Position numbers and translations under genes: made by a program. From a virus, in IMG/VR virus record IMGVR_UViG_3300037155_000096: 64,000 nucleotides of DNA; one strand, given 5' to 3'. Under the pieces are notes generated by a model. It was not told where the DNA came from, did not search any database, and worked only from the letters and a program-made list of their open reading frames with translations. Shown piece after piece: positions 2,428 through 63,878 of the stretch (the stretch's first letter is position 1; every line of letters begins with the position of its first letter).

Positions 2428-2811
2428 TTATTCATGCGCCCTGATAAGTTCGATGGCTTCATCGAGATCTTCGACCGTGATTGTCGCGAAGTTCTTCAGG
2501 AACTCCAGGTACCGTGGCTTGAAAGTATCATTAGCTTCCATTACAAATATTACTGTCTTACCGAGACCATAAGCGTATGCCATCTCAGCCGTCAGCCCAA
2601 GACCAACCGGATTAGTCTTTTCGAAATAAGCCAGCACTATGTCAGATTTCTTCAGATGATGCTTATTCCACACACCTATCTCATCCATGCTGAAATTCAA
2701 TTCCTGATTATCGCCCGGATTGAAGAACGTAAATCCTTCCAGATTTTCCTTTACTTTTTCTCTCCACATTGAGTGAAATCCACCTGACAGGTACACCTTA
2801 GTCGTTTCCAT
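2428..2811 (-). CDS. Nucleoside 2-deoxyribosyltransferase-like protein
   Basis: KVYLSGG...FFNP...DIVLAY...GLTAEMAYAYGLGKTVI matches the NDT/N-glycosidase family pattern, including the catalytic Glu. Confidence 0.75.
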   Translation of the reverse strand: METTKVYLSGGFHSMWREKVKENLEGFTFFNPGDNQELNFSMDEIGVWNKHHLKKSDIVLAYFEKTNPVGLGLTAEMAYAYGLGKTVIFVMEANDTFKPRYLEFLKNFATITVEDLDEAIELIRAHE

Positions 2812-2855
2812 CGAATCTTTCCTTTTGTATTATTTTTCTGATTATTCTTATTATC

Positions 2856-3620
2856 TTATAATTTCCATAAATGACCGTCGAATGCGAATGCATAGTCAAT
2901 GACTACCACATTGTAAAACGAGAAATTCCCGTTTCTCTGGACGAAGTAAATTCCGAATCCCTGGTTCGAGTTCTTGAACATGCTGTAATTCCAGTCTCTC
3001 TTGCACATACAGCCGACCGAGTAACCCTGCATGACCTTGCCTTCGATATTTCCGCTGGTTGCCGTATCGCTCTTGTGAATATGTCCCATTACGAAGTTCG
3101 CATGGAAGTCCTGAATCAAATGGGACCTTACAGCGGTGACTCCGGCTCTGAATCCATGAGTAACATTTAACTTGCCAGCCTTGTAAAAACCTTTGTATGG
3201 CAATATCATGCCGAACCCTCTTTTCTTCAGCTGCAGCTTGCTGTACCTGTGAATGCTATCATCGAAGAAATTCGGGTTCTCCGTGAAGTAATCATCCTGC
3301 CACTTATCGTGATTGCCGTCCAGCCATATCAACTCGGTCTTTCTATTCGGCAACAATTCATCTAACATTAGATTGGCTGCAACATGATCTTCATTGACTT
3401 CCTCATACGGCGTTTCATTCTTTCTTTTACCGTGACTTCCATAAGCCGCATAATTCAGAATATCTCCATCGAGTACAATCTCACCCGGTTTGAACTCCTT
3501 AATGAATTCACTCACCAGCTTTATCAGTTTCTTATCCTGATACGGCGAATGGAAATCCGCCATGACTATTCCCGTTTTCACCTGTCCGATTATGTTCATC
3601 CCAGCTCCGCTTGGTTGCAC
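2856..3620 (-). CDS. Calcineurin-like metallophosphoesterase
   Basis: Motifs DFH, GDILN, GNHD, THG and GHIH. Confidence 0.85.
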   Translation of the reverse strand: MQPSGAGMNIIGQVKTGIVMADFHSPYQDKKLIKLVSEFIKEFKPGEIVLDGDILNYAAYGSHGKRKNETPYEEVNEDHVAANLMLDELLPNRKTELIWLDGNHDKWQDDYFTENPNFFDDSIHRYSKLQLKKRGFGMILPYKGFYKAGKLNVTHGFRAGVTAVRSHLIQDFHANFVMGHIHKSDTATSGNIEGKVMQGYSVGCMCKRDWNYSMFKNSNQGFGIYFVQRNGNFSFYNVVVIDYAFAFDGHLWKL

Positions 3621-18900: not shown

Positions 18901-21900
18901 CCGGAAATATGGATCTTGGCTGTTGCTGCTATAATTCCCAGACCGAAATTACCTGTCGATGTAAGCGCTGCTAATACCGTCCCTGCCAGACCACTAAAAC
19001 TATTTGACGTGTCCGTAGCGAAAAGCAAATTGCCTGTACTAGCTTGAACAAGTAACGAATATCTTCTTGCTGCTAAACTTCCATCCTGAATCAAATTTAT
19101 TCCGGCATCATAAGCACCCTTGTAGTTCTTTGCGGAGAAGACTCCATTATAACTATCTGCCTTCATACAGAACGACGCACCTGAGCCATCTGATGCATTA
19201 TTCCCCTCGAAAAGTGCCACATTACCGCCTGCCGAGCCACCCCTAACTTCCAAATGATAGGTGGGGCCGGAGAGTCCAACGCCTACGTTGCCACCATTCG
19301 CATTCAGATATGAATTGGCGGTACTTCCACTTATCCAGCTACCTATGTTTGCTGTGCCGCCATCATAAATTCTTAGCCCGCCCGAACCGTTTCCATAGCC
19401 GACGAAGACTGAGCCAGTGCCTTTTGCTCTCACTATTATATTATCATTGGCAGAGGGACTTATCGTTCCAATATACCCGCCACCAGTTATACTAACCCGA
19501 GTGGCGCCAGGTACTCCGAAATAAGAAGTTCCATTTACCTCCAAGGTAACTGCCGGAATACAGCCGATACCTATATATCCTGCATTCGTAACCGTAACCA
19601 GCTGGGTGTCCTGTGCTGTGTTAAAAATCTCGATATTCGAGTTGAAGCCTGTCAGCAATCTTAAATTGTTCGAAGCCGTCAGCCTAATCAGGGGGACTAC
19701 GGTTCCCGATGTATTCTTGGATAGCAAAGCATTGTTATTCGGAATAAATATCTCACCATTAACATCCAGCTTGTTATCTGGAGTCATTCCGATTCCAACT
19801 TTACCAGCATTCGTAATCGTAATGTTCGCCCCTGCAATAATGGTTGCATCATTGTAGTTGGCTAATCCGCTCGCATTTCCGATATATAAACTTCCCGCTG
19901 TCTGAGCAATGAATCCTTCCCTATTACCATAATTGAATAACGATACAACCGCCGCTTTATTTGCACCATGCCCCATTACCCTTACAGTATTCTGAGAGTC
20001 ATTATCTCCTACATGTAATCTGGTCGCAGCATCTGGACGCCCTATGCCCACACCAGTATTGACGATTGTCAGTCTATAGTCCGTACCCTCGGCATTGTGA
20101 AAATAATGAGCCTCACTTTTATAATGTATCTCGTCGTCGCCGAGCGTAATCGTGTCCGACCAGCCCGAGATCGTGACATTCCCGCTGTTCCCATTACCCC
20201 CAAGGTCATGCACTTCTAAATATCCCGATAGTCGAATGCCACCGTCGACATCCAGGGCTACAGCTGGCGACATCACATTGATGCCGACACACTCGCCTTG
20301 TACGATAAGCGTTGGCACGTCGCCATTAGTTCCGAATAAAAGTCTTCCCGATGTATTCCGATATGCTATGTCTCCGGCTTCAGAATCTGTGAACCAATGT
20401 CCTGGGATTTGCACATAAGCAATCCATGCATCTGCACCCGCTCCGCCACTGCCTATGCCGGATGGGCCGGTTATCGGCATGTCTATCCACATGGCATTGC
20501 CGTTAAACATTGAAACTGTCAACTTGTGCGTATCAGTGCCGAATACAGCATCCCCTGCAACCGCCAATGAAGTCAAGACTCCGACCGAAGTCAGATAGGA
20601 TGCCAACACGCCATTTCCCAAAGCGGTTGCGCTTAATACCTGGACGTTGTTTATCTTGAATACTTTTCCGGTTAATAAGTTCCAGTTCTCACTCGCGGTC
20701 CAGTTGACATTCGGACTGTCCCATGTAATCGTTTTATCTATCGTGCCCTTTAATGTCAGACCGCCGCCATTTGCTGTCCCATCAGTAGGCGTATTAACTG
20801 AACCGATCTCAATGTTCTTGTCATCAACCGTTAAGGTCGTAGCATTGATCGTTACCGTAGTACCATTGACAGTAAAACAGCCACCTATGGTCAAATCATT
20901 TGTAATCGTCAGCGCGGAAAATGTCGGACTGCTCGTGGTGAGCAATGCTTGGTTCAAATCAAATCCATCCACCTGATCGGCGTTCAACCCCGTTACCAGA
21001 TGTCCCCGTGCATTAGAATTCAGGACGAAGGGCGCAACAGGAGACGGCGGGTTTACATTTACAATTCCATTTATCGTAGCATCGTGCGCGGTAGTTAAAT
21101 ACGAAAAGGTGACGATACTTGTTGTAGCAAGTGCCTGGTTAATTGCATCCAGATACGTCTTATTACTATGAACGTGATGAATCGTCGCATCGCCTGTTGT
21201 GGCTATATGCGTGTCTATTACTGAGTGTGCGTTCGTACCGACCCCGGATAAGTCCGAGTGATTTCTCGTAGCCATATCAGTCAGATTCGAGCCGGACTTA
21301 CTTATCTTAGTCCATGCTATTGCCGCAGCACTTGCGATGTCCGCGTTACTCAGCTGAGCTAACGTTGAGAGCACGCCGCTTGCGTCGGCTTTCAGAAATC
21401 CACTTACAAGACTGCTTAGCGTTATGCCGCCTGATACCGAAAGACCTCTTGACAGGCTGAAGATCGTTCCGTTGTAAGACAATATGCCCTGAACGGTGTT
21501 ATCAAAAATCAATTTGGTCAGAGAACTACCGCCTACACCTATTGTAAATATCGGACTCGTAGTCCCCATTAAATTGCTTGCCGCAGCGTAAGTGCTGCCT
21601 GCCAGGTAGATATTGCCTCTTACCGTGAGGGATTCCACTTCCACGTCCATTCCCTTAAAGACAAATTCGCTGGCACTCATCTTAAAATAACTTTGCGGCG
21701 TCTGATAAACCAGAAGTCCTTGTCCACTCAGAATAACTTTCGGTGCATACGCTGTCAGATATATCTGATCGACAAACAGTTCATTGTCAAAGTCACAGTC
21801 CTCTCCATAAACCGCATCTCCGCTACGGACCACAAATTCGAGCTTGAAGGCATTGGACGTGTGCTGAAAACTTATGGTGACATTATTCCAGTCGCTCATT

Positions 21901-23786
21901 ATGTTCGAATACTCGTATTCGGCTAGATACGGATCTATAACGACCGTATGGAGCGTTCCATAGTTTAATCCCACCTTCTTTAACAACGTTCCGGTAGCCG
22001 AGTCCTTTATGTTTACATAAGCTTCGCCAGCCTGAGCACCGATAGCATTTGACTTCGCCCTGAACGAAAGGACATAAGTGCTCGCTGTTCCCGGAACACC
22101 TTCAGGCACCGTGGCTCCAGTCTTCAGCGCAACCGTTGTCAAATCATACGCTGCTTGTTCTTTTCCTGTACTCAAGTCCAAAGCGCCACCCGTAATCGTC
22201 GCACCACCCAAAACAAGAGCTGTTACATTCCAATACGTAGCAAGCGGGGAGAAAACTGGCAGAGCATTGGCACCCCTGAGAGCTGTCGGATCATCGAATA
22301 TCGTTGTCGAGTCCGTAATTACTATCTTATTGCCGACTGTTATTCCGGTGGAGTTCAGAGCAATCGAGGGAGTCAGAAATGAGCCACCAAATCCACCTGA
22401 ATTTGCCCATAACTTGCCTTGCTGTAATATAAAATTGGCGCTCTGCACCTGTATGTCCGAGCCATCCCAGTAAATTCCTTTACTCAGCGCGCCCGAGACT
22501 ACCGAGCCTACTCTGAAAATTCCATTTGTCGAGTCGGACATAAAAAGACCATTACCAGCCAAAGCGGCTGTGGCATTAGCTGAGCGTAGGATTCCGCTGT
22601 AAGCTCCATCTGTACCCAATGTCAGGCAATGAGTTATAACCGCATCATCTGTTAAGAGCAGTCCCGTTGCTACTGTCTCGAAATATGCAAGGGCTGTCCA
22701 GTGTGTCAGATCGAATGTTCCGGTCGAGTTATCAACCTTGCAGAAATAATAAACCCAAGGATCTGTTATTAAAACTCTGTATCTAGCTACATCTCTGAAA
22801 TCATTAGTCGCGCGGTATGTTTTCGTCGGATCGTAAGTTCCCCTATAAGTTACGCCTGGTCCGTTAATTCCGTTAGCTCCTGCCGCACCTGTCGCCCCCT
22901 GTTTGGACTTTACAAAACTGAATCGTTTCGTAGTTACATACGTAGAACCATCCAGAATGACAATATCCGCATAGCCCGTGTCGGCCATAAACATGTCAAT
23001 GGTTATCCGGGAGCCGTCTTCAGGTATGGCTGCGTTACAGCCGTAGGCAGACGAATCTTCCTCTGAGAATGTCGGCGTTATTTCATTGATGCCCTTGAAA
23101 AGCTGAACATCTGTGTAACCTGATGACGGTACCGGGTTATTGCCATCTTTATCAGTAGCAATGACCAGAACTTCATTTGAGAGAATTACTGAATAGGCTC
23201 CGGAGCCATCCGTTAACCGCGTAAGCGTTAGAACATCCATCATCGGAGTCATAACTCTTCCATCCAGCAATCCTTCTACCGTACAAGTTATTACAATCAG
23301 ATCGCTGCTGAAATCCGTTGCCAGAACAGTTAGCGTTGACGTGTGTCCCGATTGAGTGACACCATTCTTTGTCCATATAAAATTTGTGGGCGAGATGTTC
23401 GTAACAGAACATGTAACAATCGTGGAACTTGGTGTTATCGAGCCATCTTCATAACGCTTGAAAATGCCGCCACAGTTCGAATTCAGTGCAATCGCCCCGA
23501 AACTCGTACCGCTTCCTACCTGGAATGATTCCCAATCTCCATCCGGTACTAACTTAGGCAGATACCCGCCACCGTAGAATCTTAATTCATATTTACCGTC
23601 GGGTATCTCGTCTTTCGGGACCACCAGGGAATACTTGCCATATAGTCTGGTTACGTCCCTTGCGACCACTTTCGCGAGGGCAGGATCATATATGACTACC
23701 TCTACGCCAACGTCCGGCAATCCATTGGAACCGAACTTCTGACCATAGATAATAACGGAATCGTCATTATACGTAATGCCTATCAT
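12933..23786 (-). CDS. Giant (3617 aa) tail fibre / host-specificity protein
   Basis: Continuous 10.8-kb ORF after the baseplate genes. Many GNVGIG..P...LDV.G repeats, probable carbohydrate-binding modules, Gly/Ser/Thr-rich shaft. Confidence 0.85.
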   Translation of the reverse strand: MIGITYNDDSVIIYGQKFGSNGLPDVGVEVVIYDPALAKVVARDVTRLYGKYSLVVPKDEIPDGKYELRFYGGGYLPKLVPDGDWESFQVGSGTSFGAIALNSNCGGIFKRYEDGSITPSSTIVTCSVTNISPTNFIWTKNGVTQSGHTSTLTVLATDFSSDLIVITCTVEGLLDGRVMTPMMDVLTLTRLTDGSGAYSVILSNEVLVIATDKDGNNPVPSSGYTDVQLFKGINEITPTFSEEDSSAYGCNAAIPEDGSRITIDMFMADTGYADIVILDGSTYVTTKRFSFVKSKQGATGAAGANGINGPGVTYRGTYDPTKTYRATNDFRDVARYRVLITDPWVYYFCKVDNSTGTFDLTHWTALAYFETVATGLLLTDDAVITHCLTLGTDGAYSGILRSANATAALAGNGLFMSDSTNGIFRVGSVVSGALSKGIYWDGSDIQVQSANFILQQGKLWANSGGFGGSFLTPSIALNSTGITVGNKIVITDSTTIFDDPTALRGANALPVFSPLATYWNVTALVLGGATITGGALDLSTGKEQAAYDLTTVALKTGATVPEGVPGTASTYVLSFRAKSNAIGAQAGEAYVNIKDSATGTLLKKVGLNYGTLHTVVIDPYLAEYEYSNIMSDWNNVTISFQHTSNAFKLEFVVRSGDAVYGEDCDFDNELFVDQIYLTAYAPKVILSGQGLLVYQTPQSYFKMSASEFVFKGMDVEVESLTVRGNIYLAGSTYAAASNLMGTTSPIFTIGVGGSSLTKLIFDNTVQGILSYNGTIFSLSRGLSVSGGITLSSLVSGFLKADASGVLSTLAQLSNADIASAAAIAWTKISKSGSNLTDMATRNHSDLSGVGTNAHSVIDTHIATTGDATIHHVHSNKTYLDAINQALATTSIVTFSYLTTAHDATINGIVNVNPPSPVAPFVLNSNARGHLVTGLNADQVDGFDLNQALLTTSSPTFSALTITNDLTIGGCFTVNGTTVTINATTLTVDDKNIEIGSVNTPTDGTANGGGLTLKGTIDKTITWDSPNVNWTASENWNLLTGKVFKINNVQVLSATALGNGVLASYLTSVGVLTSLAVAGDAVFGTDTHKLTVSMFNGNAMWIDMPITGPSGIGSGGAGADAWIAYVQIPGHWFTDSEAGDIAYRNTSGRLLFGTNGDVPTLIVQGECVGINVMSPAVALDVDGGIRLSGYLEVHDLGGNGNSGNVTISGWSDTITLGDDEIHYKSEAHYFHNAEGTDYRLTIVNTGVGIGRPDAATRLHVGDNDSQNTVRVMGHGANKAAVVSLFNYGNREGFIAQTAGSLYIGNASGLANYNDATIIAGANITITNAGKVGIGMTPDNKLDVNGEIFIPNNNALLSKNTSGTVVPLIRLTASNNLRLLTGFNSNIEIFNTAQDTQLVTVTNAGYIGIGCIPAVTLEVNGTSYFGVPGATRVSITGGGYIGTISPSANDNIIVRAKGTGSVFVGYGNGSGGLRIYDGGTANIGSWISGSTANSYLNANGGNVGVGLSGPTYHLEVRGGSAGGNVALFEGNNASDGSGASFCMKADSYNGVFSAKNYKGAYDAGINLIQDGSLAARRYSLLVQASTGNLLFATDTSNSFSGLAGTVLAALTSTGNFGLGIIAATAKIHISGNGGWASAIRMDNTSGHNWSMYPTASYYTINDETAGVARISIDNTGNVGIGRNPGSKLDVNGDLRVSQATGTSAVPYIRLYNTDTGGWMWRIGLHSSDFYIGAANDTDQLLTISSAGIVTIKSTADSALTNCGGISKNDFASQTTGYRITQHGDADFRSIYADQLHVKSFIADLEQTLAGEQMICKSVAKLAVNFVYVPGDGDDGWGDYYVTVEEFDGFIGNVFEDNDVVRFRVQSRISGGLNVTDMYGWVFFDSRYGSGADPKPWTQTYLFQPFQYPTSAITFMKGSLALDYGAAGNGYYEVSAIDGNNGSNSPYSQIVTWDYDYDEEWNTLMSPTVQSRLGNLAGLTSPVFGALKDYGLWTQNLFAEKNVSISGTLTAGDIRGVGNTFMAGRITRNLAPYSDYSNHVYGTVYTCDPSTGFGWGGDTGTAVCYANGGYSDLPYKVLNKTTGGTGGIYLDSSPGIQIYSGRTYLISCWLKASSAYTDTDGQMLGLNRIADNVYKSGTTPLSITTEWKRFYRTYFASSSDTGIYQNRAILYEDAILPLSVYSCGFQVEDITGTIQKIPSQFQPTDAGSAITYGPELITNGTDWVHSTNVTPGLADGFVATYDSAKFTVTYSLTSGNGFTGNAQRVHLDTSTSGGAGGWWGIMNGPTNQLTVGKKYSFSMKYRSSYPMCIQAQGGAVYVNYPVNTGSCQSATGTFIATSPGFFMGVCLTSFAGSWLEIDEASLKEITENDEEYGMWVCAGGIGGTMQNPVVSIADYGLRIRSAEHTIGLADGSIMIGNITGTAVSALKLTNTGVPLTSGLFGYTSGGGESFALRLNGTASLAGWDFDTATLSSASKVFISTAAQTAAVDTIKIDAADTRIFVGSSISLSGLSTGTILIGSAASVDAGVGIYADGNGNFRAGMATSSGTDFIKVTPIATTIKASVFSLIANTDDLVIDSVSKKISLAAGAIVLDGGVSATCSVVTVGPTAGSKIQLYGDTNLASISTGKTSYSDTTAGFWIARNSGVTEFYAGDANSYLKFISTGVVSIKTSSFTLASGKTVASDTTNAGLWINGTDFYVGTASDASYLKYVSGALSMKASTFNLSTSTIVISSASTGSIALGSATAFGTGTGLWLDGGGNFRAGTTAGNRISYASDGTVTLVSNYAQITGNSGWLGASNFLTWSGTTVTAAGWTIDASRIYKSLALGVGAGYVSLANEHGGTGYGQNIYSAGLSLSVDTGVVSYNMYFGELPIAKDGSNNWTFGSTPTTRKHGFGIFDYNNASPFIEFSYLNNVKKAVIAGWDFTTSMLRNGVTAGNTGNTMYFNNANTTGTGTIYGQEIILKGIVQVWRQSNNAGHLVLGELAASATSVKTGYYGLQMMDHNGNEFFALSSDTVSTAVGDHSYNRLAGFAFSYQSIWSSNLAGGSDGAYTTAGVILNSSGWISAKNFYIDSSGNAKFRGDISGASGTFTGSITGASGTIGGITFNASGITSTNFSVSTSGVATLTGANVNGSLNVTSASAFSGAISVTGSSITLSGGSLIAGNVTLNSSGLSGTNYSINASGVTATAGAIGGFALGAHTLSTGSGATLLEFSNLTSNLYVKGGTAAISANVVLGAGFYIGQDPSNNAFGAFIGSATGTNLFYNGNTGILNLAGSITSTATITGGTIQTASSGARIKMTGNNVSLYAGSSWSNSSAISFLVGTAVKFNIWADGDTILNIGTDAWTGTAGARILIGSTNDRSWNPVGLNDLRFMSSGAIEGAMNLGTNAAITTTSLLPRGLTVVSMDAPAGVAIVSDGAEGSGNFATGHIKVQAKSADGQWGVVSGSVNYNFGMYPHGAHISWGAVAGASVYRVYIYEDGDYSKYIDTTNTGMFITSRGSNYFTDVQPEVCAVFTKTVIFKGQHADGLYEMGTGTSIVDWNNGNKQRITNASDGMTYSLTFKNPLVGAGYILLFTASESIDAITFPSNIRWAGGIAPDGSSGNLSCSFIYDGTNYLGYYTVN

Positions 23787-55061: not shown

Positions 55062-56225
55062 TTAATCTACTTGAACAAACCCATCAAAACCTGAATCGCC
55101 CTCATCGTCAGCCTCCGCCGAAGCACTTATTCTTTCGCCCGGCTTACTTCTCGATGACTCCGAATAAAATGAAGTCCCTTCACCTGGGTATTTCGTCGCC
55201 AGCGTGAATACTACCGCAGCGATTGCGTCGCTTACATCCTTTGAATAATCATCGGGATGGTCGACTTTTCCCTTATATGCATTAAATTCTAATCTTCTTA
55301 ATTCTTCCTGAGCCGGCTGATACGGGTACATTTTTAATCTGTCTTCATATAATGTTTGCTTCAATGTATCATAAGCCTTCATCGGACGGTCTACCGACAC
55401 TACTTCCGACTCGTATCCGCGGGCTTTGAACGCCTGGATGCTGTCCGCAGACTGGTACGAATCCATCGATATGTATCTTATGGGCATTCCCATTTCATGC
55501 AAAGCGTATATCAACTTCCTGATATCCTGGAAAATTATATCTTCTCCCATCCTTGGATGAATCCTTAACATCAGGTCGATTTGAATCAGCGGGCGTGTTT
55601 CCACCGTTACTATCGGACCGACCTTTTTCCGGATCTCTTTGTATCCGTAAATGTGCCCTATTGCTAAACCCGTGGCATCTCCCCTCAATGAAGCGTCAAT
55701 ATGGACATGACGGGATGCCTCTGGGTGAAATCTTGGTACTCTTTCACCAAACTCGTTAATCTTAAATAATGCTTCTGTCAGGAACTTACCTCTGTCAGTC
55801 ATATCCCAGACTTCCTGAGTAAACGGATGCTGATAACTGTCATCGACTGCATCCATGATCTTCTTGCGGTTCCTTATGAACGGCGTAATAGCCACCGTAC
55901 TTACTCCGGCAAGATCTCTCAATGCTGTATCGGTATCTCTCATAAAATCATCATAGAAGTCCATGGGTACATCGATAATCTGAACTTCTTCCATACCCTC
56001 GTATTCAGTGACATCTTCTCCATCTTCCAATACCTTAGAAGATAATACTGAATTACCGACCAGCACCTTAAACCTCTCAGGCATGAATATCTTAGCATCC
56101 TTAGCTCCCCACTGACTGTTATGGACTACTAATCCATTCGCCAGCGTGAAATTATGGCAACTGTCTTCCTCGATATCATAGACATCTTCATTACCATCAA
56201 ATTCTATCTTTGCGATACGCTTCAT
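55062..56225 (-). CDS. terL: Terminase large subunit C-terminal part, preceded by split-intein C-fragment
   Basis: Starts with a 36-aa IntC ending VVHN|S. Then an RNase H-like nuclease: HVHIDASLRGDATG, ISMDSYQS, SKDVSDAIA. Confidence 0.92.
   Translation of the reverse strand: MKRIAKIEFDGNEDVYDIEEDSCHNFTLANGLVVHNSQWGAKDAKIFMPERFKVLVGNSVLSSKVLEDGEDVTEYEGMEEVQIIDVPMDFYDDFMRDTDTALRDLAGVSTVAITPFIRNRKKIMDAVDDSYQHPFTQEVWDMTDRGKFLTEALFKINEFGERVPRFHPEASRHVHIDASLRGDATGLAIGHIYGYKEIRKKVGPIVTVETRPLIQIDLMLRIHPRMGEDIIFQDIRKLIYALHEMGMPIRYISMDSYQSADSIQAFKARGYESEVVSVDRPMKAYDTLKQTLYEDRLKMYPYQPAQEELRRLEFNAYKGKVDHPDDYSKDVSDAIAAVVFTLATKYPGEGTSFYSESSRSKPGERISASAEADDEGDSGFDGFVQVD
56118..56225 (-). mobile_element. 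Split intein C-fragment (IntC, 36 aa)
   Basis: Block F VYDIEE and block G HNFTLANGLVVHN; Ser+1 nucleophile at 56115-56117. Confidence 0.93.
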
Positions 56226-56226
56226 G

Positions 56227-56556
56227 TTATTTCAAGAATCCCGCTATTGCCTTGAGTTCTTTCGCAGAGAATATCCATTGCGATTGCTTGCCATTGAATT
56301 CCCCAATGAACCTGATACTGCCATCCTTTAATTTCTCCATGGTAGCATTGTCCAATACCAATACTTCTATAGTGCCGGCGTTCAACACTGGTTTCCCATC
56401 ATCACCAACGATAGTATCGCCCAGTTTCAATTTCGAATAAACTCCTTTCTCCGCCAATCTCTTTTCCTCCATAATCGAAGGGATCAAATCTTCCGGAACT
56501 TTCCCACCCAGTATTTCAAAATCTTCTGCCAGCGAACTTATTTTAACCTCTTTCAT
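56227..56556 (-). CDS. Hypothetical protein between the terminase halves
   Basis: 109 aa; N-terminus ISSLAEDFEILG resembles LTSLDEDLIALG of the prohead core protein. Confidence 0.7.
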   Translation of the reverse strand: MKEVKISSLAEDFEILGGKVPEDLIPSIMEEKRLAEKGVYSKLKLGDTIVGDDGKPVLNAGTIEVLVLDNATMEKLKDGSIRFIGEFNGKQSQWIFSAKELKAIAGFLK

Positions 56557-56565
56557 AACTTCTCC

Positions 56566-57057
56566 TTATGCTGCTTCTTTTTTAATAAATAACTTGTAAT
56601 ACGCCTTCAGATAGCCACCATACGTGCCTGTCGCTACCGCCAACTTGTTCATTTCGCTGTGGCTATACGTTATAACCTTGAAATAAACGTCCTTCTCAAC
56701 TTCTCTTTTCAATACCAGCTCGCCCGTCACATCGAAATACTGACCTTTGTAGACGTTGAAAGCATGGTCAATCGGTATTCCGACTATATCTGCGAAGCCC
56801 TCGACATATTCGACTCCCGATATGTGCGAAGCCACCTGATAAGCATTCTGGTAACACTGCTTCGCCTGGAACATTTTGATCAGCCTATAAACGTCATTGG
56901 CTATTTCAGGGATCTTCTCTACCGAGACAACCTTCACCGCCTTCACTAATTTCGCCTGCCATGCATACAGATCTGAATCGCCAGTATAAAGTTTCGATAT
57001 CATTTCCAGATGGCTCTTGGGCGACTCTTCCGCTATATTAAAAGCTGAACAATTCAT
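56566..57057 (-). CDS. Transglutaminase/papain-like Cys-His-Asp protein between the terminase halves
   Basis: KQCYQNA (Cys), YVEGFA, IPIDHAF (His), YFDVT (Asp). Confidence 0.7.
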   Translation of the reverse strand: MNCSAFNIAEESPKSHLEMISKLYTGDSDLYAWQAKLVKAVKVVSVEKIPEIANDVYRLIKMFQAKQCYQNAYQVASHISGVEYVEGFADIVGIPIDHAFNVYKGQYFDVTGELVLKREVEKDVYFKVITYSHSEMNKLAVATGTYGGYLKAYYKLFIKKEAA

Positions 57058-57331
57058 CGCCCACCTTTAAGTTCTGAAGTTCCACATAAGTTAAATCGTT
57101 CATAAGGAACGGATGCTCCTTCGTAGCTCTCACTACAGAGCCATCTTCCATCGTGATTTTATAAACAGGGACATTAACTCCTGTCCGCTGAGCTGAATGC
57201 CCTTTACCCAGAACGCCCTGACCCGTGGCTGGATCTACCGATACGGTCCTAAAATTCTCAACGCCGACTAAATCTTTAATAGCAATTATGCCCTTCAGCG
57301 GGATCTTAATCGGAGTGTCGCCAGTTAAGCA
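57038..57331 (-). mobile_element. Split intein N-fragment (IntN, 97 aa)
   Basis: Block A CLTGDT, block N2 VYKITMEDG, block B ATKEHPF, ending LKVGDELFSF*. Confidence 0.93.
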
Positions 57332-58225
57332 ATATTCTCTTACGAATACGTTGGGATCTTCTCTTGCCTCAGCAATTCTTCTTTCAGTAAAATCGGTCGT
57401 GGTTCTTTTGGATGAAACCAGAAACAATTTCCCTGGCATTTTTCCAAACTTGTTAAACCGGGACTTGATTCTACGACTTACCTGAGCATATAGTAACTCT
57501 GCATTATCTACATGACCATGACGGGCATGTGAAGCCTTCATTTCCTTGCTCATAGCTCCCAAGAAGTTCGACTCATCCATGATTGCACCGATTGCGTTAC
57601 TTCCTATACCTGCATTTGCCGTACTGGAAGCTGGAGTCGCCCATACGTTATTCGGGAATCTTATTTCCTTCTGAGTCAGTTTCGGTTTGAACTTCTCATT
57701 GAAATACGGACTCATCGTGAGCATACCCTGAAGATCTTCGAAGATTACTTTACGAGCAGTCTGCTCTGACAATGAAATCGCCAGGAATGCTATCAGGGAA
57801 TCAGGAGCCAATCCAAAAGACTTCTGCGGATTGCGTAAACAGCTCATCTCATAGAACACTCTGCAGGCAGCTATTTTAGCCATGTAGGTCTTGCCCCAGC
57901 CGAGTGAACCAGTTAAAATAACTTCATAATACTCTCCATTGAAGAGTTCTATCATGTCGTCAATTAGCTTCGGCCATAGATTATGCACCTTCCCGAAGTG
58001 GTACGGATCTGTCAACCATGTTTCGATATCCACCATAGGTTCTTGGAACTCTAATTCGTTCATTAGTTCAAGTAACCCAGTTTTACCGCCGGTCATTTCA
58101 GCCATAATAAGTTGCATCACTTCCATCTCTTCAGGTGAAAGTGACCTTACATCCCTCTTTAGAAGTTTCTGTACCTCCTCCGGAGTCTGTTTACTTATAT
58201 TACGACCATCAATGAGTTCTATCAT
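57038..58225 (-). CDS. terL: Terminase large subunit N-terminal ATPase part, ending in split-intein N-fragment
   Basis: Walker A GSLGWGKT, Walker B AIMDESNF, motif LVSS, then EY|CLTGDT. Confidence 0.92.
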   Translation of the reverse strand: MIELIDGRNISKQTPEEVQKLLKRDVRSLSPEEMEVMQLIMAEMTGGKTGLLELMNELEFQEPMVDIETWLTDPYHFGKVHNLWPKLIDDMIELFNGEYYEVILTGSLGWGKTYMAKIAACRVFYEMSCLRNPQKSFGLAPDSLIAFLAISLSEQTARKVIFEDLQGMLTMSPYFNEKFKPKLTQKEIRFPNNVWATPASSTANAGIGSNAIGAIMDESNFLGAMSKEMKASHARHGHVDNAELLYAQVSRRIKSRFNKFGKMPGKLFLVSSKRTTTDFTERRIAEAREDPNVFVREYCLTGDTPIKIPLKGIIAIKDLVGVENFRTVSVDPATGQGVLGKGHSAQRTGVNVPVYKITMEDGSVVRATKEHPFLMNDLTYVELQNLKVGDELFSF

Positions 58226-58230
58226 TGGGA

Positions 58231-58305
58231 CTATTTCTTTTTATTAGTCGCGATTCTTTCAAGACTTTGAATAATCTCAGTCATTTCTTTTATTAGGTCT
58301 TTCAT
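58231..58305 (-). CDS. Micro-ORF (24 aa, not in ORF track)
   Basis: AAGGAAG RBS; MKDLIKEMTEIIQSLERIATNKKK*; ends 5 nt before the terL start. Confidence 0.55.
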   Translation of the reverse strand: MKDLIKEMTEIIQSLERIATNKKK

Positions 58306-58314
58306 AGTACTTCC

Positions 58315-58443
58315 TTATTTTATTAGTTCATTTAATGTCGAATAATGCGTTGCAATAGCTATCAGAATTAGAACCATCGAAAACAAACCGACAGCCCCAA
58401 TCGTTGTTAGCCCAAACCCTATAACCCGTAAAGACTTGTTCAT
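58315..58443 (-). CDS. Small single-TM membrane protein (42 aa)
   Basis: The ATG overlaps the stop of the T9SS gene (ATGA); MNKSLRVIGFGLTTIGAVGLFSMVLILIAIATHYSTLNELIK. Confidence 0.55.
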   Translation of the reverse strand: MNKSLRVIGFGLTTIGAVGLFSMVLILIAIATHYSTLNELIK

Positions 58444-59207
58444 TTCAGTAACACCATTTTGATTGCTGCCGTATGCTGATTTCCGTTTGCCCGCTTGGTC
58501 GTCATTGCGAGGATATACACGCCGGCGTACCGACCGCGCCATTTGACCTCGTAACTGCCCTGTGTGCGCATTTCATCTGGGAATGACTCTATCTTACTCC
58601 CGATGACATTATAGACCGTCAGTCTTACCTTACAGTCATAGGGGAGCGAATATCTGATCGTCGTCTCTTGATTAAATGGATTCGGGTAGTTCGACACGGT
58701 AAATTCCTTGGGTAACATTGACACCACGATAATATTCGAATGCACCGAGCCACCATCGTTGTCCACCTGATTCAGGCGATAAGCAATAACCCCTGCCATG
58801 GAGAGCTTATCTGAGAACATATACTCTTTACCCTTATTGCTATTCCCTTGGGCCGCCACGAAGCCGATCTTCTCCCAGGGACTGCCCATCCAAAGTTTTC
58901 TTTCTATCTCAAATCCATGAAAATTTACTTCCGTCGCTGTCACCCACACAAGCTCAACGTAATTGTCTCTTAAAGTTTTCCCCTTAAAAGAGATCAGTTG
59001 CACTGGTAGCGGCTCCTGATACTGATAAGCTCCAAGATCCGGATGATTATAAGGCACTGGATTTCCCAGTATATCCGTCTTAATCCGTTGTCCATTTACC
59101 TTTACGGTATCGCCAGCACCTCTACATGGGCTATTCCACTGAAGCTGCTGCGAAAACATCTGGCACGACAAAACAACTATTAGCCATATCCATATCATCC
59201 TTTTCAT
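58440..59207 (-). CDS. Secreted protein with type IX secretion (type A) C-terminal sorting domain
   Basis: Signal peptide; a choice-of-anchor-Q-like remnant (SPCRGAG...TDILG...PDLGAYQY); a PLPVQLISF...YRLNQVDNDG Ig domain; CTD NYPNPFN..TTIRYSL...YNVIG...GVYIL...KMVLLK. Confidence 0.9.
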   Translation of the reverse strand: MKRMIWIWLIVVLSCQMFSQQLQWNSPCRGAGDTVKVNGQRIKTDILGNPVPYNHPDLGAYQYQEPLPVQLISFKGKTLRDNYVELVWVTATEVNFHGFEIERKLWMGSPWEKIGFVAAQGNSNKGKEYMFSDKLSMAGVIAYRLNQVDNDGGSVHSNIIVVSMLPKEFTVSNYPNPFNQETTIRYSLPYDCKVRLTVYNVIGSKIESFPDEMRTQGSYEVKWRGRYAGVYILAMTTKRANGNQHTAAIKMVLLK

Positions 59208-59986
59208 ACGCCTACGTTCTCCAATACTTCTTCATTCTTTTCTGTTACTTGCAATTCTATCATCGCCGGCTTTTCTTCTGCCTGGACTTCCGCAAGAAGA
59301 CCTGCCACATCCCCAGCCCTTATGGACTTGAATAAACTCTCAGCCACTCCTAATACCTTGGAAACTGCTCTTGGATCGTTAAGCACTTTGGCTACCGAGT
59401 CTTTCCCATACTTCAAACCGAAATCGGTTATTAACTTTTTTCTTACTGCCGCTTCTTCACCCGGATTACCCTTGTTCACTCCCAGATCTCCCATTATCGC
59501 AGCAAGATCTCTTAACAGAGCTGCGGCTATCGCAATTTCATTTCCTGTTGTCTTAAACAACTTGTTTAATTTCTTTTCTGTACCGACATCAATATTGATA
59601 CGCCCCTTCTGGATCGCATAAAGCTCCTGCATCTCAGCCATGATATCCAGACCTGCATCAATCTTCTCTTTTGCCTTGATTACTTCAGCCGGCATACGAA
59701 TAGCCACCGTCTCCAGTGGCGTCAATGCTTTTCTGAACGAATTCAGGTGATCGATTAACTCTCCCTTAGCCATGCCCAGACCTGCATATTCCGCCGGGTA
59801 AGTAGTCTCGATGTAGTCAGCCACTCTTGTTGACGGCCAGCCCGCCTGTATTCTGGCTTTCAGCTCGGGGAAACACGTCAAAGTTTCCAGGGACGCCTGA
59901 TGGCTCTCCGGTTTCTTCGCAGACGGTCTCCTGAACACTCCGTTAAAACTTGGCAATCCACTGCCTTCTGGGTTAATCTTTACCAT
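59204..59986 (-). CDS. Probable terminase small subunit
   Basis: Helical 260-aa protein with an N-terminal HTH-like region and coiled coil, upstream of terL. Call rests mainly on position. Confidence 0.5.
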   Translation of the reverse strand: MVKINPEGSGLPSFNGVFRRPSAKKPESHQASLETLTCFPELKARIQAGWPSTRVADYIETTYPAEYAGLGMAKGELIDHLNSFRKALTPLETVAIRMPAEVIKAKEKIDAGLDIMAEMQELYAIQKGRINIDVGTEKKLNKLFKTTGNEIAIAAALLRDLAAIMGDLGVNKGNPGEEAAVRKKLITDFGLKYGKDSVAKVLNDPRAVSKVLGVAESLFKSIRAGDVAGLLAEVQAEEKPAMIELQVTEKNEEVLENVGV

Positions 59987-60354: not shown

Positions 60355-62940
60355 TTATTTTTTCAATACGTTATTCATTATCTCGGATTTGTATTTCATA
60401 ATCGCACCCTCAAAACCCACGTCCATCATGTTCCTCAAATTCAGCCTGATGGCTTCTTTGATATTCGGTCTTGTGCCGGTCGGACAGAAGGAATCCAGCA
60501 TCCCATCTTCGTTGTCGCTGAACTCTGTCAACATTCCAATTATCTCGGGTTCGTAGTTGACGCCGACTTCACCATAAGTTCTGTAATCGAACGCAGGCAT
60601 GAATACTCTTTCAACCCAGCTATAACAGCGTTCATCTTTTGCATACTTCTTGGGGGGATCAAGCGCCAGTTCCCTTATCATAAATGACAGGATCGGTTTG
60701 CGGTCCATGAATCCGAAAGCCAAGTCGTTATCGAGGGCAATCAGTTTACCACTGTCTTTAATTATTCCTACGTTGTCAGTGAACCTGTCCTGCTGATAGG
60801 ACATGAAGTCCGCTACTACCAGCCTTTTTATGTCATCGCCGGAGATCTTCTGGATTATCGCCATTGCTGCGTCCTGCCCCTTAGCCTTTGGCTTGGCCAA
60901 ATCCTGACATACGATGAAGCTCGGTAAGAATTCAGCCATCTCAGCATCGAATATCTGGTTCTGTTTCTTTTCGTTTCTAACTTCCACGCCCTTGACATTT
61001 AACTCCCCTCCGCTAAGCTTGATCTGCTTGACCATCGGAGTGCCTACGCCGACTCTATTAAAGAAATCAGCTGTGCTTTGACTTATCGGACCGGTTTCAG
61101 TCTGACTGTGATGTCTTATCTTAAAAAAGAAATCTGTTCCGCCTAATTCAGCTTTGAACGTTGTATTCGCCCCACCGTTGACAATCTTGATTTTCTCAAA
61201 GCTGCCGGCTCCATCGGTACAAACCAGTTCGGCTGCTTTTGCAAATTTTAATTGTTCATCCAGAGGAATATCCATCTTGACGCCCGCCTTCATAACATCC
61301 AGAGTCGCCGCTGTAACTATTTTATCAGCATCCACCGAACCATCTTTTACGGAGGAAATCAACCCGAGGAAATTCACCTTGAATTCTTTACCGTTGATAT
61401 CTCCCTTAGCGTCCGCTTCTTCCTCCTTCTGCATCTGGTCTGTTAGGAACTGTGTGAACAAGTCCTCTGTTTTGAACGGAGAGACCTTGATGGCTTCATT
61501 TAATATGCGCTGCACACTGTTTTCAGCCAGAGTGGGATTCATCTCCTTCAATTTGGCTGAATAAAGTATCTTCATAAATTTGATTTTCTGGATCGGCATT
61601 ACTGTCGGCGTGACTCTCAAAGGCAGATTGTAATTCTTCAGGAAATCCGTAAGCTGTTTTACCGGATAAAGCAGTTCGACTGTCTTCGTAACCCACGTAT
61701 TATAGAGAGCAGGATTATCTGCGAGTAACTCAGTGAAGTATCTGGTCGCTGAACCTAACGGGATCTCAAGGAACGCCAGCCACCCATATCTGGACTGGTT
61801 GAAGGATGTTTCCTTCAGGTAGTTAATCATCTTGTCCTGGATAACTCTTGGGAACATCTTTCCCCAGTACAGAGCTATTGCATAAAACAAAACACCCCTA
61901 TTTTTATCTCCCTTCAGACCTGAGAAATCGAATTTTTCAAACTTCTCCTGATGCGCTGCTATTACCTTCTCGGCATGAGCATTGTCGCTGACCAGATCCA
62001 AAGCTGTCATCTCTTTGTTTTTCTTGGACAATGCGAAATAAGTATTCTTATCCCCCTTGAAATACAGTGGTACGTCCTCTGCGCTCCATAACGAGTTAAT
62101 CTGGTCTGCCAGTGTTTTGTCAGATATTCCCCGTGACATTACATTTTTACCTGGTGTCACCGGAACTTCATCTTTCGGATCCACTATGTCCAGAGCCGTA
62201 TCGATAACATCGCCGAAATATGGCTTGTAAACGTCCTTCCTTAGTTGCTCCCACTTGTCTTTGAACCCAGTATACCGGCTCGTACCCTGTGTGGATTCAT
62301 CTGAGGCATTGTTAATCGCGAGGTAAGCTGACGAATTGGCAATATCGTAGAACGTGAACGTATTCGGATCTCCTATAAACCCCTTTTTCTTAGCTTTCAG
62401 TACGAATAATCTGTGTTCGAAGCCAAATCTCCCCATTCTTCTATCCAAGCCGCCCACTGTCCGGAGCATTTGCTTGGTGGTCGTTATCCACGTGCCGTAA
62501 CTCTTGCCTGAAACCCTCAACTGGACTCCATTCATCTCGATAACTTTGCCCCTGACATTGACGTTCTGGGTAAAACAATGAATTCCCGTTGCCAGGAATG
62601 CGTCCATGTACTTCTTGAAGACAGGACTCTTAATCTTTATATAATCATCATTTAGCAGGAATCCGAAGTCATACAACTTTAATACATTCAGGACTCGATT
62701 TGAATTGGCTGATACGCCACCGTTTTTCTCCGCGAATTGCACTACGGCATTCGGGAATCTTTTCTTGAACTCCTCAAGGAGAGCATATTTCTCTTTGTTA
62801 CCGGAAGCATCTTCCACCACTATGATTTTGTCGCAACTGTTGACATCCGCGCATGCCGCCAGCGTGTCCATGAATTCCTTAAATACTGCCGGTCTGCTCC
62901 ACGTAATAATGCCTATAGCCCACTTCAACCCTCTATACAT
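60355..62940 (-). CDS. GT2 glycosyltransferase fused to HipA/PI3-PI4-kinase-like domain
   Basis: N-terminal IGIITWSRP..VVEDAS..NGGVSANSN..LLNDD..GGLD (GT-A fold). C-terminal FFFK...DFMSYQQDRFTDN...LIALDNDLAF (kinase). Confidence 0.8.
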   Translation of the reverse strand: MYRGLKWAIGIITWSRPAVFKEFMDTLAACADVNSCDKIIVVEDASGNKEKYALLEEFKKRFPNAVVQFAEKNGGVSANSNRVLNVLKLYDFGFLLNDDYIKIKSPVFKKYMDAFLATGIHCFTQNVNVRGKVIEMNGVQLRVSGKSYGTWITTTKQMLRTVGGLDRRMGRFGFEHRLFVLKAKKKGFIGDPNTFTFYDIANSSAYLAINNASDESTQGTSRYTGFKDKWEQLRKDVYKPYFGDVIDTALDIVDPKDEVPVTPGKNVMSRGISDKTLADQINSLWSAEDVPLYFKGDKNTYFALSKKNKEMTALDLVSDNAHAEKVIAAHQEKFEKFDFSGLKGDKNRGVLFYAIALYWGKMFPRVIQDKMINYLKETSFNQSRYGWLAFLEIPLGSATRYFTELLADNPALYNTWVTKTVELLYPVKQLTDFLKNYNLPLRVTPTVMPIQKIKFMKILYSAKLKEMNPTLAENSVQRILNEAIKVSPFKTEDLFTQFLTDQMQKEEEADAKGDINGKEFKVNFLGLISSVKDGSVDADKIVTAATLDVMKAGVKMDIPLDEQLKFAKAAELVCTDGAGSFEKIKIVNGGANTTFKAELGGTDFFFKIRHHSQTETGPISQSTADFFNRVGVGTPMVKQIKLSGGELNVKGVEVRNEKKQNQIFDAEMAEFLPSFIVCQDLAKPKAKGQDAAMAIIQKISGDDIKRLVVADFMSYQQDRFTDNVGIIKDSGKLIALDNDLAFGFMDRKPILSFMIRELALDPPKKYAKDERCYSWVERVFMPAFDYRTYGEVGVNYEPEIIGMLTEFSDNEDGMLDSFCPTGTRPNIKEAIRLNLRNMMDVGFEGAIMKYKSEIMNNVLKK

Positions 62941-62985: not shown

Positions 62986-63723
62986 CTAGCTATTGCCGGC
63001 TGCCTTCTGCAATACTTCTAATAATTTTCCGTTCAACTGCGCTGGATCTTCGTTGATCTGCATCTCATCAAAAAACTTGAATACTTTCTTGTCCACATCC
63101 ATGAAAAACATCTTGCTCCCCTCGAAATCGAATATCATGTAGCCACGGCTATTCAGGGTTTCCCCGTTCTCTGAAAATATCCCATTCAGGATGCGACTTA
63201 AATTCTCTATGGACTTATCTTCGCCAGCTTCTTCCCATGCCTTGTCAATTTGCTCTTCCGTGAAGCCGTTATCTTTTAATTCTCTCTTAATAGCCTTGGT
63301 TACCGCCTCCCATTCAGTCTCATCAGTGAATCCGAAGAGGTCCTGTAACGATTCTTCTCCGTACTTCTCAGCCATTTCCTCATATAAGATTCGGAATTTG
63401 TCAGGATCTAATTCTCCCGACAGCATGTTAAGTTTCACTGTCAAGAATTTTTGTACGTCCTCTGACTTGAACTGAGCATCTGCCAGCACCACGCAGGGAA
63501 GTTCATGAAAACCCAGTTTCAGGGCGGCTTTATATCGGTGTGCTCCGCCTATAATCCTGAATTTCCCATTATCCAACGGTACGACCTGTATGGCTGCAAT
63601 AAATCCGGATGTCTGTATTTCTTTAAGTAATCTCTCGAATGCCTTGCCATCCATGGAATTCGGATTAAATTCGTTCTCCTCTATCTGTGTTATCGCTACA
63701 AATCGTATATCGTGGTCAATCAT
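62986..63723 (-). CDS. ParB/Srx-like N-terminal domain protein
   Basis: ENEFNPN...GF..AIQV...FRIIGGAHRYKAA; the ATG at 63723 is the likely start. Confidence 0.85.
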   Translation of the reverse strand: MIDHDIRFVAITQIEENEFNPNSMDGKAFERLLKEIQTSGFIAAIQVVPLDNGKFRIIGGAHRYKAALKLGFHELPCVVLADAQFKSEDVQKFLTVKLNMLSGELDPDKFRILYEEMAEKYGEESLQDLFGFTDETEWEAVTKAIKRELKDNGFTEEQIDKAWEEAGEDKSIENLSRILNGIFSENGETLNSRGYMIFDFEGSKMFFMDVDKKVFKFFDEMQINEDPAQLNGKLLEVLQKAAGNS

Positions 63724-63878
63724 ATTATCCTGCAATCAATTTCGTCGTGTGAATAAATCTATTTGTCAGTATTATCATTGAGGCTTGCAGGTATCAGACC
63801 GGTAAGAACACCGGGAAGGGCTGGCTAAATCAAGAAGACGCAATCCACGGGAATATGCGTCTTTCGAATCTAAGTGCA

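What the first reader, a model, noticed from the sequence alone, without database searches (positions are those of the whole stretch)
58315..59207. Phage-encoded type IX secretion substrate with its passenger domain deleted, inserted in the terminase operon
Seen: signal peptide, then only the last ~45 aa of a choice-of-anchor-Q-like segment, the PVQLISF Ig domain and an intact type A T9SS sorting domain, translationally coupled to a 42-aa TM peptide. Known: T9SS CTDs route host proteins to the cell surface in the FCB group, and the PVELxSF+CTD architecture is typical of Ignavibacteria/Bacteroidota secreted proteins. Inference: a cargo-less T9SS substrate could jam or decoy the translocon or coat the surface, for superinfection exclusion or receptor masking. 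It also points to the host group.
Basis: partly seen in the sequence, partly recalled or inferred. Interest (0 to 1): 0.82.

Follow-up and report, generated by a model that had tools for sequence, protein, structure and literature searches.

The report
Phage-encoded passenger-less type IX secretion cargo
A large T4-like phage, probably of Ignavibacteria, carries just before its terminase gene a small, well-conserved gene with both labels for export through the host's type IX secretion system but almost no cargo; it sits in a swap-prone gene slot and is a stripped-down example of an already reported kind of phage gene.

Summary
ORF 58440..59207 (-) encodes 255 aa. It has a signal peptide ending before Gln, a 46-aa piece resembling the end cap of beta-helix passengers, an FN3-fold domain and a type A T9SS sorting domain (TIGR04183 25.4 bits, cutoff 23). 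Its stop overlaps (ATGA) the start of a 42-aa hydrophobic ORF, which lies upstream of a split-intein large terminase.

It is not a decaying fragment:
- All near-identical phage copies recovered from independent metagenome samples keep it.
- Polymorphism over nine DNA copies is 4 synonymous to 1 non-synonymous site.
- A second signal-peptide allele, different in sequence but still signal-like, lies on at least 8 contigs.
- dN/dS against a paralog is about 0.1.

In two of the five close relatives first recovered, that 350-aa paralog, with a roughly 140-aa passenger, sits in tandem, flanked by a 74-nt direct repeat. The site is therefore a cassette slot.

The closest cellular relatives (36-46% identity) are Ignavibacteria, whose genomes encode PorU and SprA. 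Their passengers are nearly always large.

Phage T9SS cargo in variable islands is published (Bellas 2020), and this scan has noted other cases on other DNA. The new element is the lack of a passenger. The "jam or decoy" idea is untested and not favoured. Moderate interest; new variant of a known kind.

The parts
59151..59207 (-). Signal peptide, residues 1-19 (MKR, hydrophobic core, predicted cut S19|Q20)
   Evidence: Sequence. Mean Kyte-Doolittle hydropathy is 2.17 over residues 4-18. An alternative allele replaces nt 7-72 only and keeps the same n/h/c layout and Gln at +1; it occurs on at least 8 contigs.
59010..59150 (-). Residues 20-66: short N-terminal piece resembling the end cap of beta-helix / choice-of-anchor Q passengers
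   Evidence: NF041518 scores 19.6 bits, below its cutoff of 25, covering profile positions 16-58 of 58. Residues 42-64 align to the end of the PF13229 passenger of P0056. AF2 pLDDT is about 45-65.
58710..59009 (-). Residues 67-166: FN3-fold domain (PVQLISF...YRLNQVDNDG), not matched by any Pfam model at the thresholds searched
   Evidence: AF2 pLDDT is about 90. Z 11.4, rmsd 2.4 A over 100 residues against Ihog FN3. The homologue HMM matches at E 2e-37. Pfam lists only the CTD at E up to 0.1.
58443..58709 (-). Residues 167-255: type A T9SS C-terminal sorting domain (NYPNPFN ... GVYIL ... KMVLLK), followed by the stop at 58440-58442
   Evidence: TIGR04183 scores 25.4 bits against a cutoff of 23; PF18962 scores 26.5 against 27. 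The best Foldseek hit is PorU 6za2. Z 10.3, rmsd 2.1-2.5 A over 87 residues as an Ig-like sandwich. The domain is invariant across population variants except G229A in one copy.
58315..58443 (-). 42-aa ORF with one hydrophobic span; its start overlaps the stop of the 255-aa gene (ATGA)
   Evidence: It is present in all close relatives with 1 synonymous and 2 non-synonymous polymorphic sites. It matches no family. Whether it is coding and what it does remain open.
59190..59263 (-). 74-nt segment (3' end of the 260-aa gene plus the first codons of the T9SS gene) that occurs twice in L001 and L003, flanking the extra 350-aa paralog
59204..59986 (-). Upstream 260-aa gene of unknown function; its stop overlaps the start of the T9SS gene (ATGA)
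   Evidence: It has no Pfam or NCBIfam hit, matches phrog_35167 (function unknown), and has no PDB relative.
57038..58225 (-). Downstream large terminase N-terminal part ending in an intein N-terminal piece
   Evidence: TIGR01445 scores 33.7 bits; matches phrog_9 (terminase large subunit).

Best explanation
This is a functional, selectively maintained accessory gene of a roughly 180-kb T4-like phage. It encodes a minimal type A cargo for the host's type IX secretion system.

Inferred route: Sec export and signal-peptide cleavage before Gln20; folding in the periplasm; recognition of the C-terminal sandwich by the host T9SS (a PorV/SprA-type translocon); removal of the CTD by a PorU-type sortase. 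This would leave an FN3 module of about 150 residues on, or released from, the surface of the infected cell.

The gene occupies a recombination-prone cassette slot between a 260-aa gene and the split-intein large terminase. It is tightly packed against its neighbours, and no sigma-70-type promoter or intrinsic terminator of its own was found, so it is probably transcribed with the late genes. Sister phages carry a second cassette here with the same signal peptide, FN3 and CTD chassis but a roughly 140-aa passenger.

The most likely role is remodelling of the infected cell surface, for example masking a receptor or blocking adsorption of further or progeny phage.

Shown: the domain anatomy, conservation, purifying selection, cassette behaviour and host group. 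Inferred: actual secretion, surface attachment and the biological role.
For: - Domains.
- Phage context.
- Conservation: the same gene is kept in every near-identical phage contig recovered from many independent samples.
- Polymorphism: over nine DNA copies, codons 26-255 show 4 synonymous and 1 non-synonymous site. The non-synonymous site is only in L002, an assembly with several broken genes nearby.
- Signal peptide: an alternative allele with unrelated sequence but the same layout and Gln at +1 lies on at least 8 contigs.
- Paralog: dN/dS against the 350-aa paralog is about 0.09-0.16 over the signal peptide, FN3 and CTD, with dS saturated.
- Cassette: the paralog lies in tandem in L001 and L003, flanked by a 74-nt direct repeat.
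- Composition: GC and codon usage match the rest of the phage.
- Operon: ATGA overlaps at both ends; no sigma-70-type promoter or intrinsic terminator on the coding strand at the gene.
- Host group: the closest cellular relatives are Ignavibacteria, and five such genomes have full-length PorU and SprA.
- Precedent: phage T9SS cargo in variable islands is published (PMC7468147).
Against: - No experiment or expression data.
- The host is not identified directly.
- Pfam PF18962 is 0.5 bits under its cutoff.
- No SignalP-type prediction could be run.
- The low dN/dS against the paralog mostly reflects time before the passenger was lost, and the within-population counts are small.
- A surface role for a bare FN3 module is a guess.
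- Late co-transcription with terminase genes is an odd time to start superinfection exclusion.
- The promoter scan does not cover Bacteroidota-type promoters.
Confidence: 0.6

Rival explanations
1. Adaptor or regulator: the mini cargo does not act alone. Either its short N-terminal piece plus FN3 binds a CTD-less partner and carries or anchors it at the surface (piggy-back), or its CTD acts on host T9SS regulation, as the small CTD protein PorA does through PorY.
For: - The only well-supported short cellular homologue, P0013 (273 aa), overlaps the end of a Peptidase_S74 fibre-like gene that has no Por_Secre_tail hit. Earlier notes of this scan describe that pairing as recurrent in Bacteroidota (unchecked leads).
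- PorA of P. gingivalis (246 aa, a small beta domain plus CTD) regulates T9SS genes via its CTD (PMC7712824, PMC12152298).
Against: - The four large window proteins scanned have no S74 domain; the other window proteins were not scanned.
- The upstream 260-aa protein has no signal peptide, so it cannot meet the cargo in the periplasm.
- There is no sequence match to any PDB chain. PorA's N-terminal domain has a crystal structure (PMC7712824) but was not compared directly.
- No partner was identified.
Confidence: 0.13
2. Neutral remnant: an in-frame deletion derivative of a full-length cargo cassette that persists only because it is harmless and recent.
For: - The N-terminal piece looks like the leftover end of a beta-helix passenger.
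- The locus gains and loses cassettes.
- Diversity in the gene is low: 5 variable sites in 690 nt against 25 in 1188 nt of the terminase N-terminal part. This would fit a recent origin.
- A related viral ORF (L012) has lost its CTD.
Against: - It is the short gene that is kept in every close relative, while the full-length paralog is the variable one.
- Polymorphism is 4 synonymous to 1 non-synonymous site.
- The signal peptide was exchanged for another working-looking one rather than degraded.
- None of the nine DNA copies compared has a frameshift or stop.
Confidence: 0.12
3. Decoy or jam: a cargo-less substrate made in bulk occupies PorV/SprA/PorU and shuts down host T9SS traffic, or titrates the attachment sites.
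For: - An intact CTD with almost no passenger.
- Placement among what are probably highly expressed late genes.
Against: - A blocker would need only the CTD, yet the FN3 domain is equally conserved.
- The sister cassette in the same slot carries a passenger.
- To my knowledge, small reporter-CTD fusions are simply secreted by T9SS without blocking it (background knowledge, not tested here).
- Short SP-FN3(-CTD) proteins also occur in other viral contigs and in cells.
Confidence: 0.08
4. Virion decoration: the FN3 and Ig-like sandwiches are a Hoc-like capsid or tail ornament, and the N-terminus is not used as a signal peptide.
For: - The gene lies in the structural and packaging region.
- Related FN3-bearing ORFs follow gp23-like capsid genes in other viral contigs.
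- Foldseek also lists phage tail FN3 domains.
Against: - Two different alleles both keep a classical signal peptide with Gln at +1.
- The CTD motifs typical of secreted cellular proteins are conserved.
- No other window protein carries these domains.
Confidence: 0.03

Closest known systems
Phage-encoded T9SS cargo proteins of 'Cryophage' (Bellas et al. 2020, Nat Commun, PMC7468147); also T9SS sorting domains next to crAss-BACON ORFs (de Jonge et al. 2019, PMC6949934)
   Same: The gene is phage-encoded, carries a type A sorting domain, and sits in a spot that differs between otherwise near-identical phage genomes.
   Different: The published cases carry enzymes or a PA14 domain (endoglucanase, GH39). 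This one has no passenger beyond a 46-aa stub and an FN3 spacer. It lies directly before a split-intein terminase, and the likely host group is Ignavibacteria.
Cellular Ignavibacteria/Melioribacteraceae proteins with the FN3 plus type A CTD C-terminal cassette
   Same: They share 36-46% identity over residues ~66-255, the same PLPVEL...YRLKQID...NYPNPFNP...KKMVLLK motifs, and a signal peptide followed by Gln.
   Different: The cellular proteins carry passengers. The median length before the FN3 domain is about 390 aa in the 80 best GTDB hits, with peptidase, chitinase, beta-helix, FG-GAP, BNR and other domains. The two phage paralogs are much closer to each other (71%) than to any cellular protein.
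PorA (PGN_0123) of Porphyromonas gingivalis, a 246-aa CTD protein that regulates PorXY-SigP (PMC7712824, PMC12152298)
   Same: It is of similar size, with a small non-enzymatic beta domain plus a CTD. It shows that a 'cargo-less' CTD protein can have a role of its own.
   Different: No sequence match to any PDB chain was found; PorA was not compared directly. PorA's N-terminal domain is FimH-lectin-like, not FN3. Nothing indicates that the phage protein meets a PorY-type kinase.
Phage accessory genes for envelope proteins that block adsorption or superinfection (T5 Llp, lambda Bor/Lom; background knowledge, not checked here)
   Same: These are small exported proteins encoded among phage genes that change the host envelope.
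   Different: They use different export routes (lipoprotein or beta-barrel pathways), have no sequence or fold relation, and have experimentally shown roles.

Membership tests
T9SS type A C-terminal sorting domain cargo (TIGR04183 / PF18962) | Match to the curated CTD model above its cutoff | tested here: met
   TIGR04183 scores 25.4 bits against a cutoff of 23. PF18962 scores 26.5 against 27, marginally below. The paralog P0002 passes both models.
T9SS type A C-terminal sorting domain cargo (TIGR04183 / PF18962) | The domain lies at the extreme C-terminus and has a beta-sandwich fold | tested here: met
   Homologue alignments run to the last residue, K255. AF2 gives pLDDT about 90 for residues 170-255. 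PorU 6za2 is the top Foldseek hit. Z 10.3 over 87 residues.
T9SS type A C-terminal sorting domain cargo (TIGR04183 / PF18962) | N-terminal Sec signal peptide | tested here: met
   Judged by inspection and hydropathy only; no SignalP-type tool was available. Two unrelated alleles and the paralog all keep the basic start, hydrophobic core and Gln at +1.
T9SS type A C-terminal sorting domain cargo (TIGR04183 / PF18962) | The host possesses the T9SS translocon and sortase | tested here: inconclusive
   The host is unknown. Five Ignavibacteria genomes holding the closest cellular homologues all have PorU (917-980 bits) and SprA (762-961 bits).
T9SS type A C-terminal sorting domain cargo (TIGR04183 / PF18962) | Secretion, CTD cleavage and surface attachment | not testable with these tools
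   Needs expression in a T9SS host.
Choice-of-anchor Q domain (NF041518) | Match above the curated cutoff over the whole 58-position profile | tested here: not met
   It scores 19.6 bits against a cutoff of 25 and covers profile positions 16-58 only. It resembles the domain but is not a member by the curated rule.
Phage-encoded T9SS cargo in flexible genomic islands (Bellas 2020) | Encoded in a phage genome and variable between near-identical phage genomes | tested here: met
   Phage hallmark genes. Presence or absence of the 350-aa paralog and a signal-peptide allele swap, within 97-99% identical flanks.
Phage-encoded T9SS cargo in flexible genomic islands (Bellas 2020) | Carries an enzymatic or adhesin passenger | tested here: not met
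   There are only 46 residues between the signal peptide and FN3, and no family hit for them above cutoff.
Mini T9SS protein paired with a CTD-less S74 fibre gene (earlier notes of this scan) | Adjacent fibre gene with a Peptidase_S74 domain | tested here: not met
   The flanking genes are a 260-aa unknown and a 42-aa ORF. The four large window proteins scanned have no S74 hit. The cellular short homologue P0013 does have such a neighbour.
PorA-like regulatory CTD protein | Sequence or fold relation to PorA; binding to PorY | tested here: inconclusive
   No PDB chain matched by sequence at E up to 1. PorA does not appear among the fold matches listed, which does not exclude it. Binding is not testable here.

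The most novel reading that the evidence does not exclude
Passenger-less T9SS proteins may be a functional class of their own, shared by phages and cells. In this reading the FN3-CTD chassis plus a short N-terminal peptide works as an adaptor or signal. It would either carry or anchor a CTD-less partner at the surface, or tune the secretion system itself in a PorA-like way. The phage would use it to reprogramme host T9SS output during infection, drawing on a slot of interchangeable cassettes.
Probability: 0.15. Interest if true: 0.75.

Novelty: new variant of a known kind. Interest (0 to 1): 0.45.

Why it matters
Phage use of the host's type IX secretion system has been reported only in passing and never tested. 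This locus offers a clean case to test:
- a minimal cargo under purifying selection;
- a natural sister cassette with a passenger;
- two natural signal-peptide alleles;
- a defined recombination junction.

It also narrows the likely host to Ignavibacteria, a group for which my literature searches turned up no relevant phage work. If the small protein does reach the surface, it would show that lytic-type T4-like phages redecorate the cell envelope through T9SS. It would also give a compact natural FN3-CTD tag for surface display in this group.

Tried and rejected
- PHROGs gave no hit for the 255-aa protein, the 42-aa ORF or the paralog.
- The PDB sequence search found nothing for the 255-aa protein and only chance-level hits for the 260-aa neighbour. 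The neighbour therefore could not be called a small terminase.
- GenBank phages (INPHARED, tblastn) held only two weak FN3-only hits, both in huge uncultured phages.
- A search for more diverged phages of the same lineage, using the terminase extein, returned only the near-identical contigs. No deeper comparison of the short architecture was possible.
- The paralog's passenger is an orphan: three relatives in 5.8 billion proteins, plus one viral ORF. Its AF2 model is all-beta with middling confidence. Its only passenger-spanning fold alignments are loose ones to the N-terminal sugar-binding region of GH2 enzymes, with rmsd above 13 A. I give it no fold name.
- Scans found no sigma-70-type promoter or intrinsic terminator on the coding strand at the gene; the method does not cover Bacteroidota promoters.
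- No integrase was found in the 77.8-kb related record, which is only about 42% complete, so lifestyle is undecided.
- The window's own assembly is not held, so whole-genome searches were limited to that related record.
- No complex prediction was run, because I make no binding claim.

Full report
**What is there**

On the minus strand, ORF 58440..59207 encodes 255 aa. Its start overlaps the stop of an upstream 260-aa gene (ATGA at 59204-59207). Its stop overlaps the start of a 42-aa ORF (58315..58443, ATGA). A 25-aa micro-ORF and the large terminase gene follow.

The window is a phage. All genes lie on one strand. They include a Gp23-type capsid protein, a T4-type portal, an S77 prohead protease and a tail sheath. 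The large terminase is split into an N-terminal part ending in an intein N-terminal piece and a C-terminal part starting with an intein C-terminal piece. Contigs of 179 and 185 kb carry the same gene, so the genome is probably about 180 kb.

**Anatomy**

- Residues 1-19 read as a signal peptide: MKR, ten hydrophobic residues, then S19|Q20. No dedicated predictor was available.
- Residues 19-64 give a sub-threshold match to choice-of-anchor Q: 19.6 bits against a cutoff of 25, covering positions 16-58 of a 58-position profile. Residues 42-64 also align to the end of the right-handed beta-helix passenger of the cellular protein P0056, immediately before its PLPVEL motif.
- AlphaFold2 with a 49-sequence alignment gives low confidence for residues 1-66 and two confident sandwiches.
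- Residues 67-166 have an FN3 fold (Z 11.4, rmsd 2.4 A over 100 residues). Residues 166-255 form an Ig-like sandwich (Z 10.3). PorU, which ends in a CTD, is the best Foldseek hit.
- TIGR04183 is passed (25.4 against 23). Pfam PF18962 is missed by half a bit.
- No other ORF in the window carries either domain.

**Cellular relatives and host**

The FN3-CTD pair is a common C-terminal cassette of Ignavibacteria and Melioribacteraceae proteins. These share 36-46% identity and carry many kinds of passenger: peptidases, chitinase, beta-helix, FG-GAP, BNR and cytochromes.

In the 80 best GTDB matches, the median length ahead of the FN3 domain is about 390 aa. Only about three ORFs are as short as the phage protein. 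Another short one, P0013 (273 aa), lies in a cellular contig and overlaps the end of a Peptidase_S74 gene.

Five Ignavibacteria genomes with the closest homologues all encode full-length PorU and SprA. This supports an Ignavibacteria host with a working T9SS but does not prove it.

**Evidence that the gene is used**

- The same 255-aa protein occurs on many contigs from independent samples.
- Over nine DNA copies, codons 26-255 show four synonymous sites and one non-synonymous site. The non-synonymous change occurs only in L002, an assembly with several broken genes nearby. The terminase N-terminal part shows 22 synonymous and 3 non-synonymous sites in the same comparison.
- One allele replaces only nucleotides 7-72 with unrelated sequence that again encodes a basic start, a hydrophobic core and ...VCA|Q. 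This allele is on at least eight contigs.
- GC content and codon usage match the rest of the phage.

**A cassette slot**

In L001 and L003, which are 97-99% identical in the flanks, an extra 350-aa gene (P0002) sits between the 260-aa gene and the 255-aa gene. A 74-nt direct repeat brackets it. The repeat consists of the 3' end of the 260-aa gene and the first codons of the T9SS gene.

P0002 has a similar signal peptide. Its FN3-CTD is 71% identical to that of the 255-aa protein, far closer than to any cellular protein. It carries an orphan all-beta passenger of roughly 140 aa. dN/dS between the two paralogs is about 0.09-0.16, with dS saturated. The paralog is also common in the population. 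The locus thus holds one or two interchangeable cargo cassettes built on one chassis.

**Wider picture**

A pattern scan of IMG/VR found 56 viral loci with this FN3 domain. Nearly all the complete ORFs start with a signal peptide and carry variable passengers. Among them:
- Some are also nearly passenger-less (L032, 221 aa; L034, 160 aa).
- Some have full CTDs (L008-L011, L057).
- Many end in a short tail of about 40 residues.
- Several follow gp23-like capsid genes.

Bellas et al. 2020 reported phage-encoded T9SS cargo in variable islands and suggested roles in competition or superinfection. de Jonge et al. 2019 noted T9SS sorting domains beside crAss-BACON ORFs. Earlier reports of this scan describe further phage T9SS cargo on other DNA, and 'mini' T9SS proteins paired with S74 fibre genes in cells. 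I used these only as leads.

**Reading**

The best-supported account is a genuine minimal T9SS cargo that puts an FN3 module on or outside the infected cell. It is expressed with late genes and belongs to a swap-prone accessory slot. Its role is unknown; surface remodelling is the most economical guess.

The jam or decoy idea is possible but not favoured. The FN3 domain is as constrained as the CTD, and the sister cassette delivers a passenger.

An adaptor or regulator role deserves testing. The precedents are the small CTD protein PorA, whose CTD activates PorXY, and the S74-linked short homologue P0013.

A neutral remnant is unlikely, given that the short gene is retained everywhere, the signal peptide was swapped rather than degraded, and most polymorphic sites are synonymous. 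The counts are small, however.

**Verdict**

The kind of gene is known; the lack of a passenger and the clear cassette mechanics are new details. Interest is moderate.

Noticed in passing
window 55062-58225 (-): The large terminase is split. The N-terminal gene ends in an intein N-terminal piece (TIGR01445), and a separate gene starts with an intein C-terminal piece (TIGR01443). Two ORFs of 163 and 109 aa lie between them. The arrangement is the same in L004 and L143-L146.
   Followed up: partly
L001 4030-5082; L003 about 2200-3232: An extra 350-aa T9SS cargo paralog with an orphan all-beta passenger (QTITFDNQGWNAN...). The passenger is otherwise found only in P0141, P0142 and the viral ORF L012 4317-5336. 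The L012 ORF adds an extra segment between the passenger and FN3 and has lost the CTD.
   Followed up: partly
L013 4398-5429, L019 4398-5417, L018 4518-5414 and other IMG/VR loci: Many viral ORFs with a signal peptide, a passenger and this FN3 domain end in only about 40 residues. These look like the second half of a type A CTD (...YYN[IL]xGQ...G[FV]YIK...), a possible shortened sorting tag.
   Followed up: no
L043 1264-5411; L011 2161-5642: In other phages with a gp23-like capsid protein (32-41% identical to the window's), the secreted FN3-bearing gene lies directly, or one gene, downstream of the capsid gene on the same strand.
   Followed up: no
window 58710-59009 and homologues: The FN3-fold domain with the motifs PLPVELxSF ... 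W.TATE.NN.GF ... YRLKQID.DG had no Pfam hit at the thresholds searched (E up to 0.1-1).
   Followed up: partly
L006 6781-8822: In a cellular contig, a 407-aa Peptidase_S74 (fibre chaperone) protein overlaps a 273-aa signal peptide-FN3-CTD protein (P0013), and two more CTD proteins lie upstream. This is the same kind of pairing that earlier scan notes describe.
   Followed up: partly
window 58231-58305 (-): A 25-aa micro-ORF with an AAGGAAG Shine-Dalgarno-like site lies between the 42-aa ORF and the start of the terminase gene.
   Followed up: no
window 60355-62940 (-) and 62986-63735 (-): An 861-aa protein has an N-terminal match to a PHROG glycosyltransferase family and an uncharacterised remainder. 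A ParB_N protein lies next to it. Related contigs place a PIG-L deacetylase and a second ParB gene upstream.
   Followed up: no
window 57038-59207: Nucleotide diversity among the copies is lower in the T9SS gene (5 variable sites in 690 nt) than in the adjacent terminase N-terminal part (25 in 1188 nt). This could mean the cassette spread recently through the phage population.
   Followed up: partly
window 12933-23786 (-): A 3617-aa ORF has no Pfam hit at E up to 0.001. The 1450-aa and 718-aa ORFs nearby also have none.
   Followed up: no
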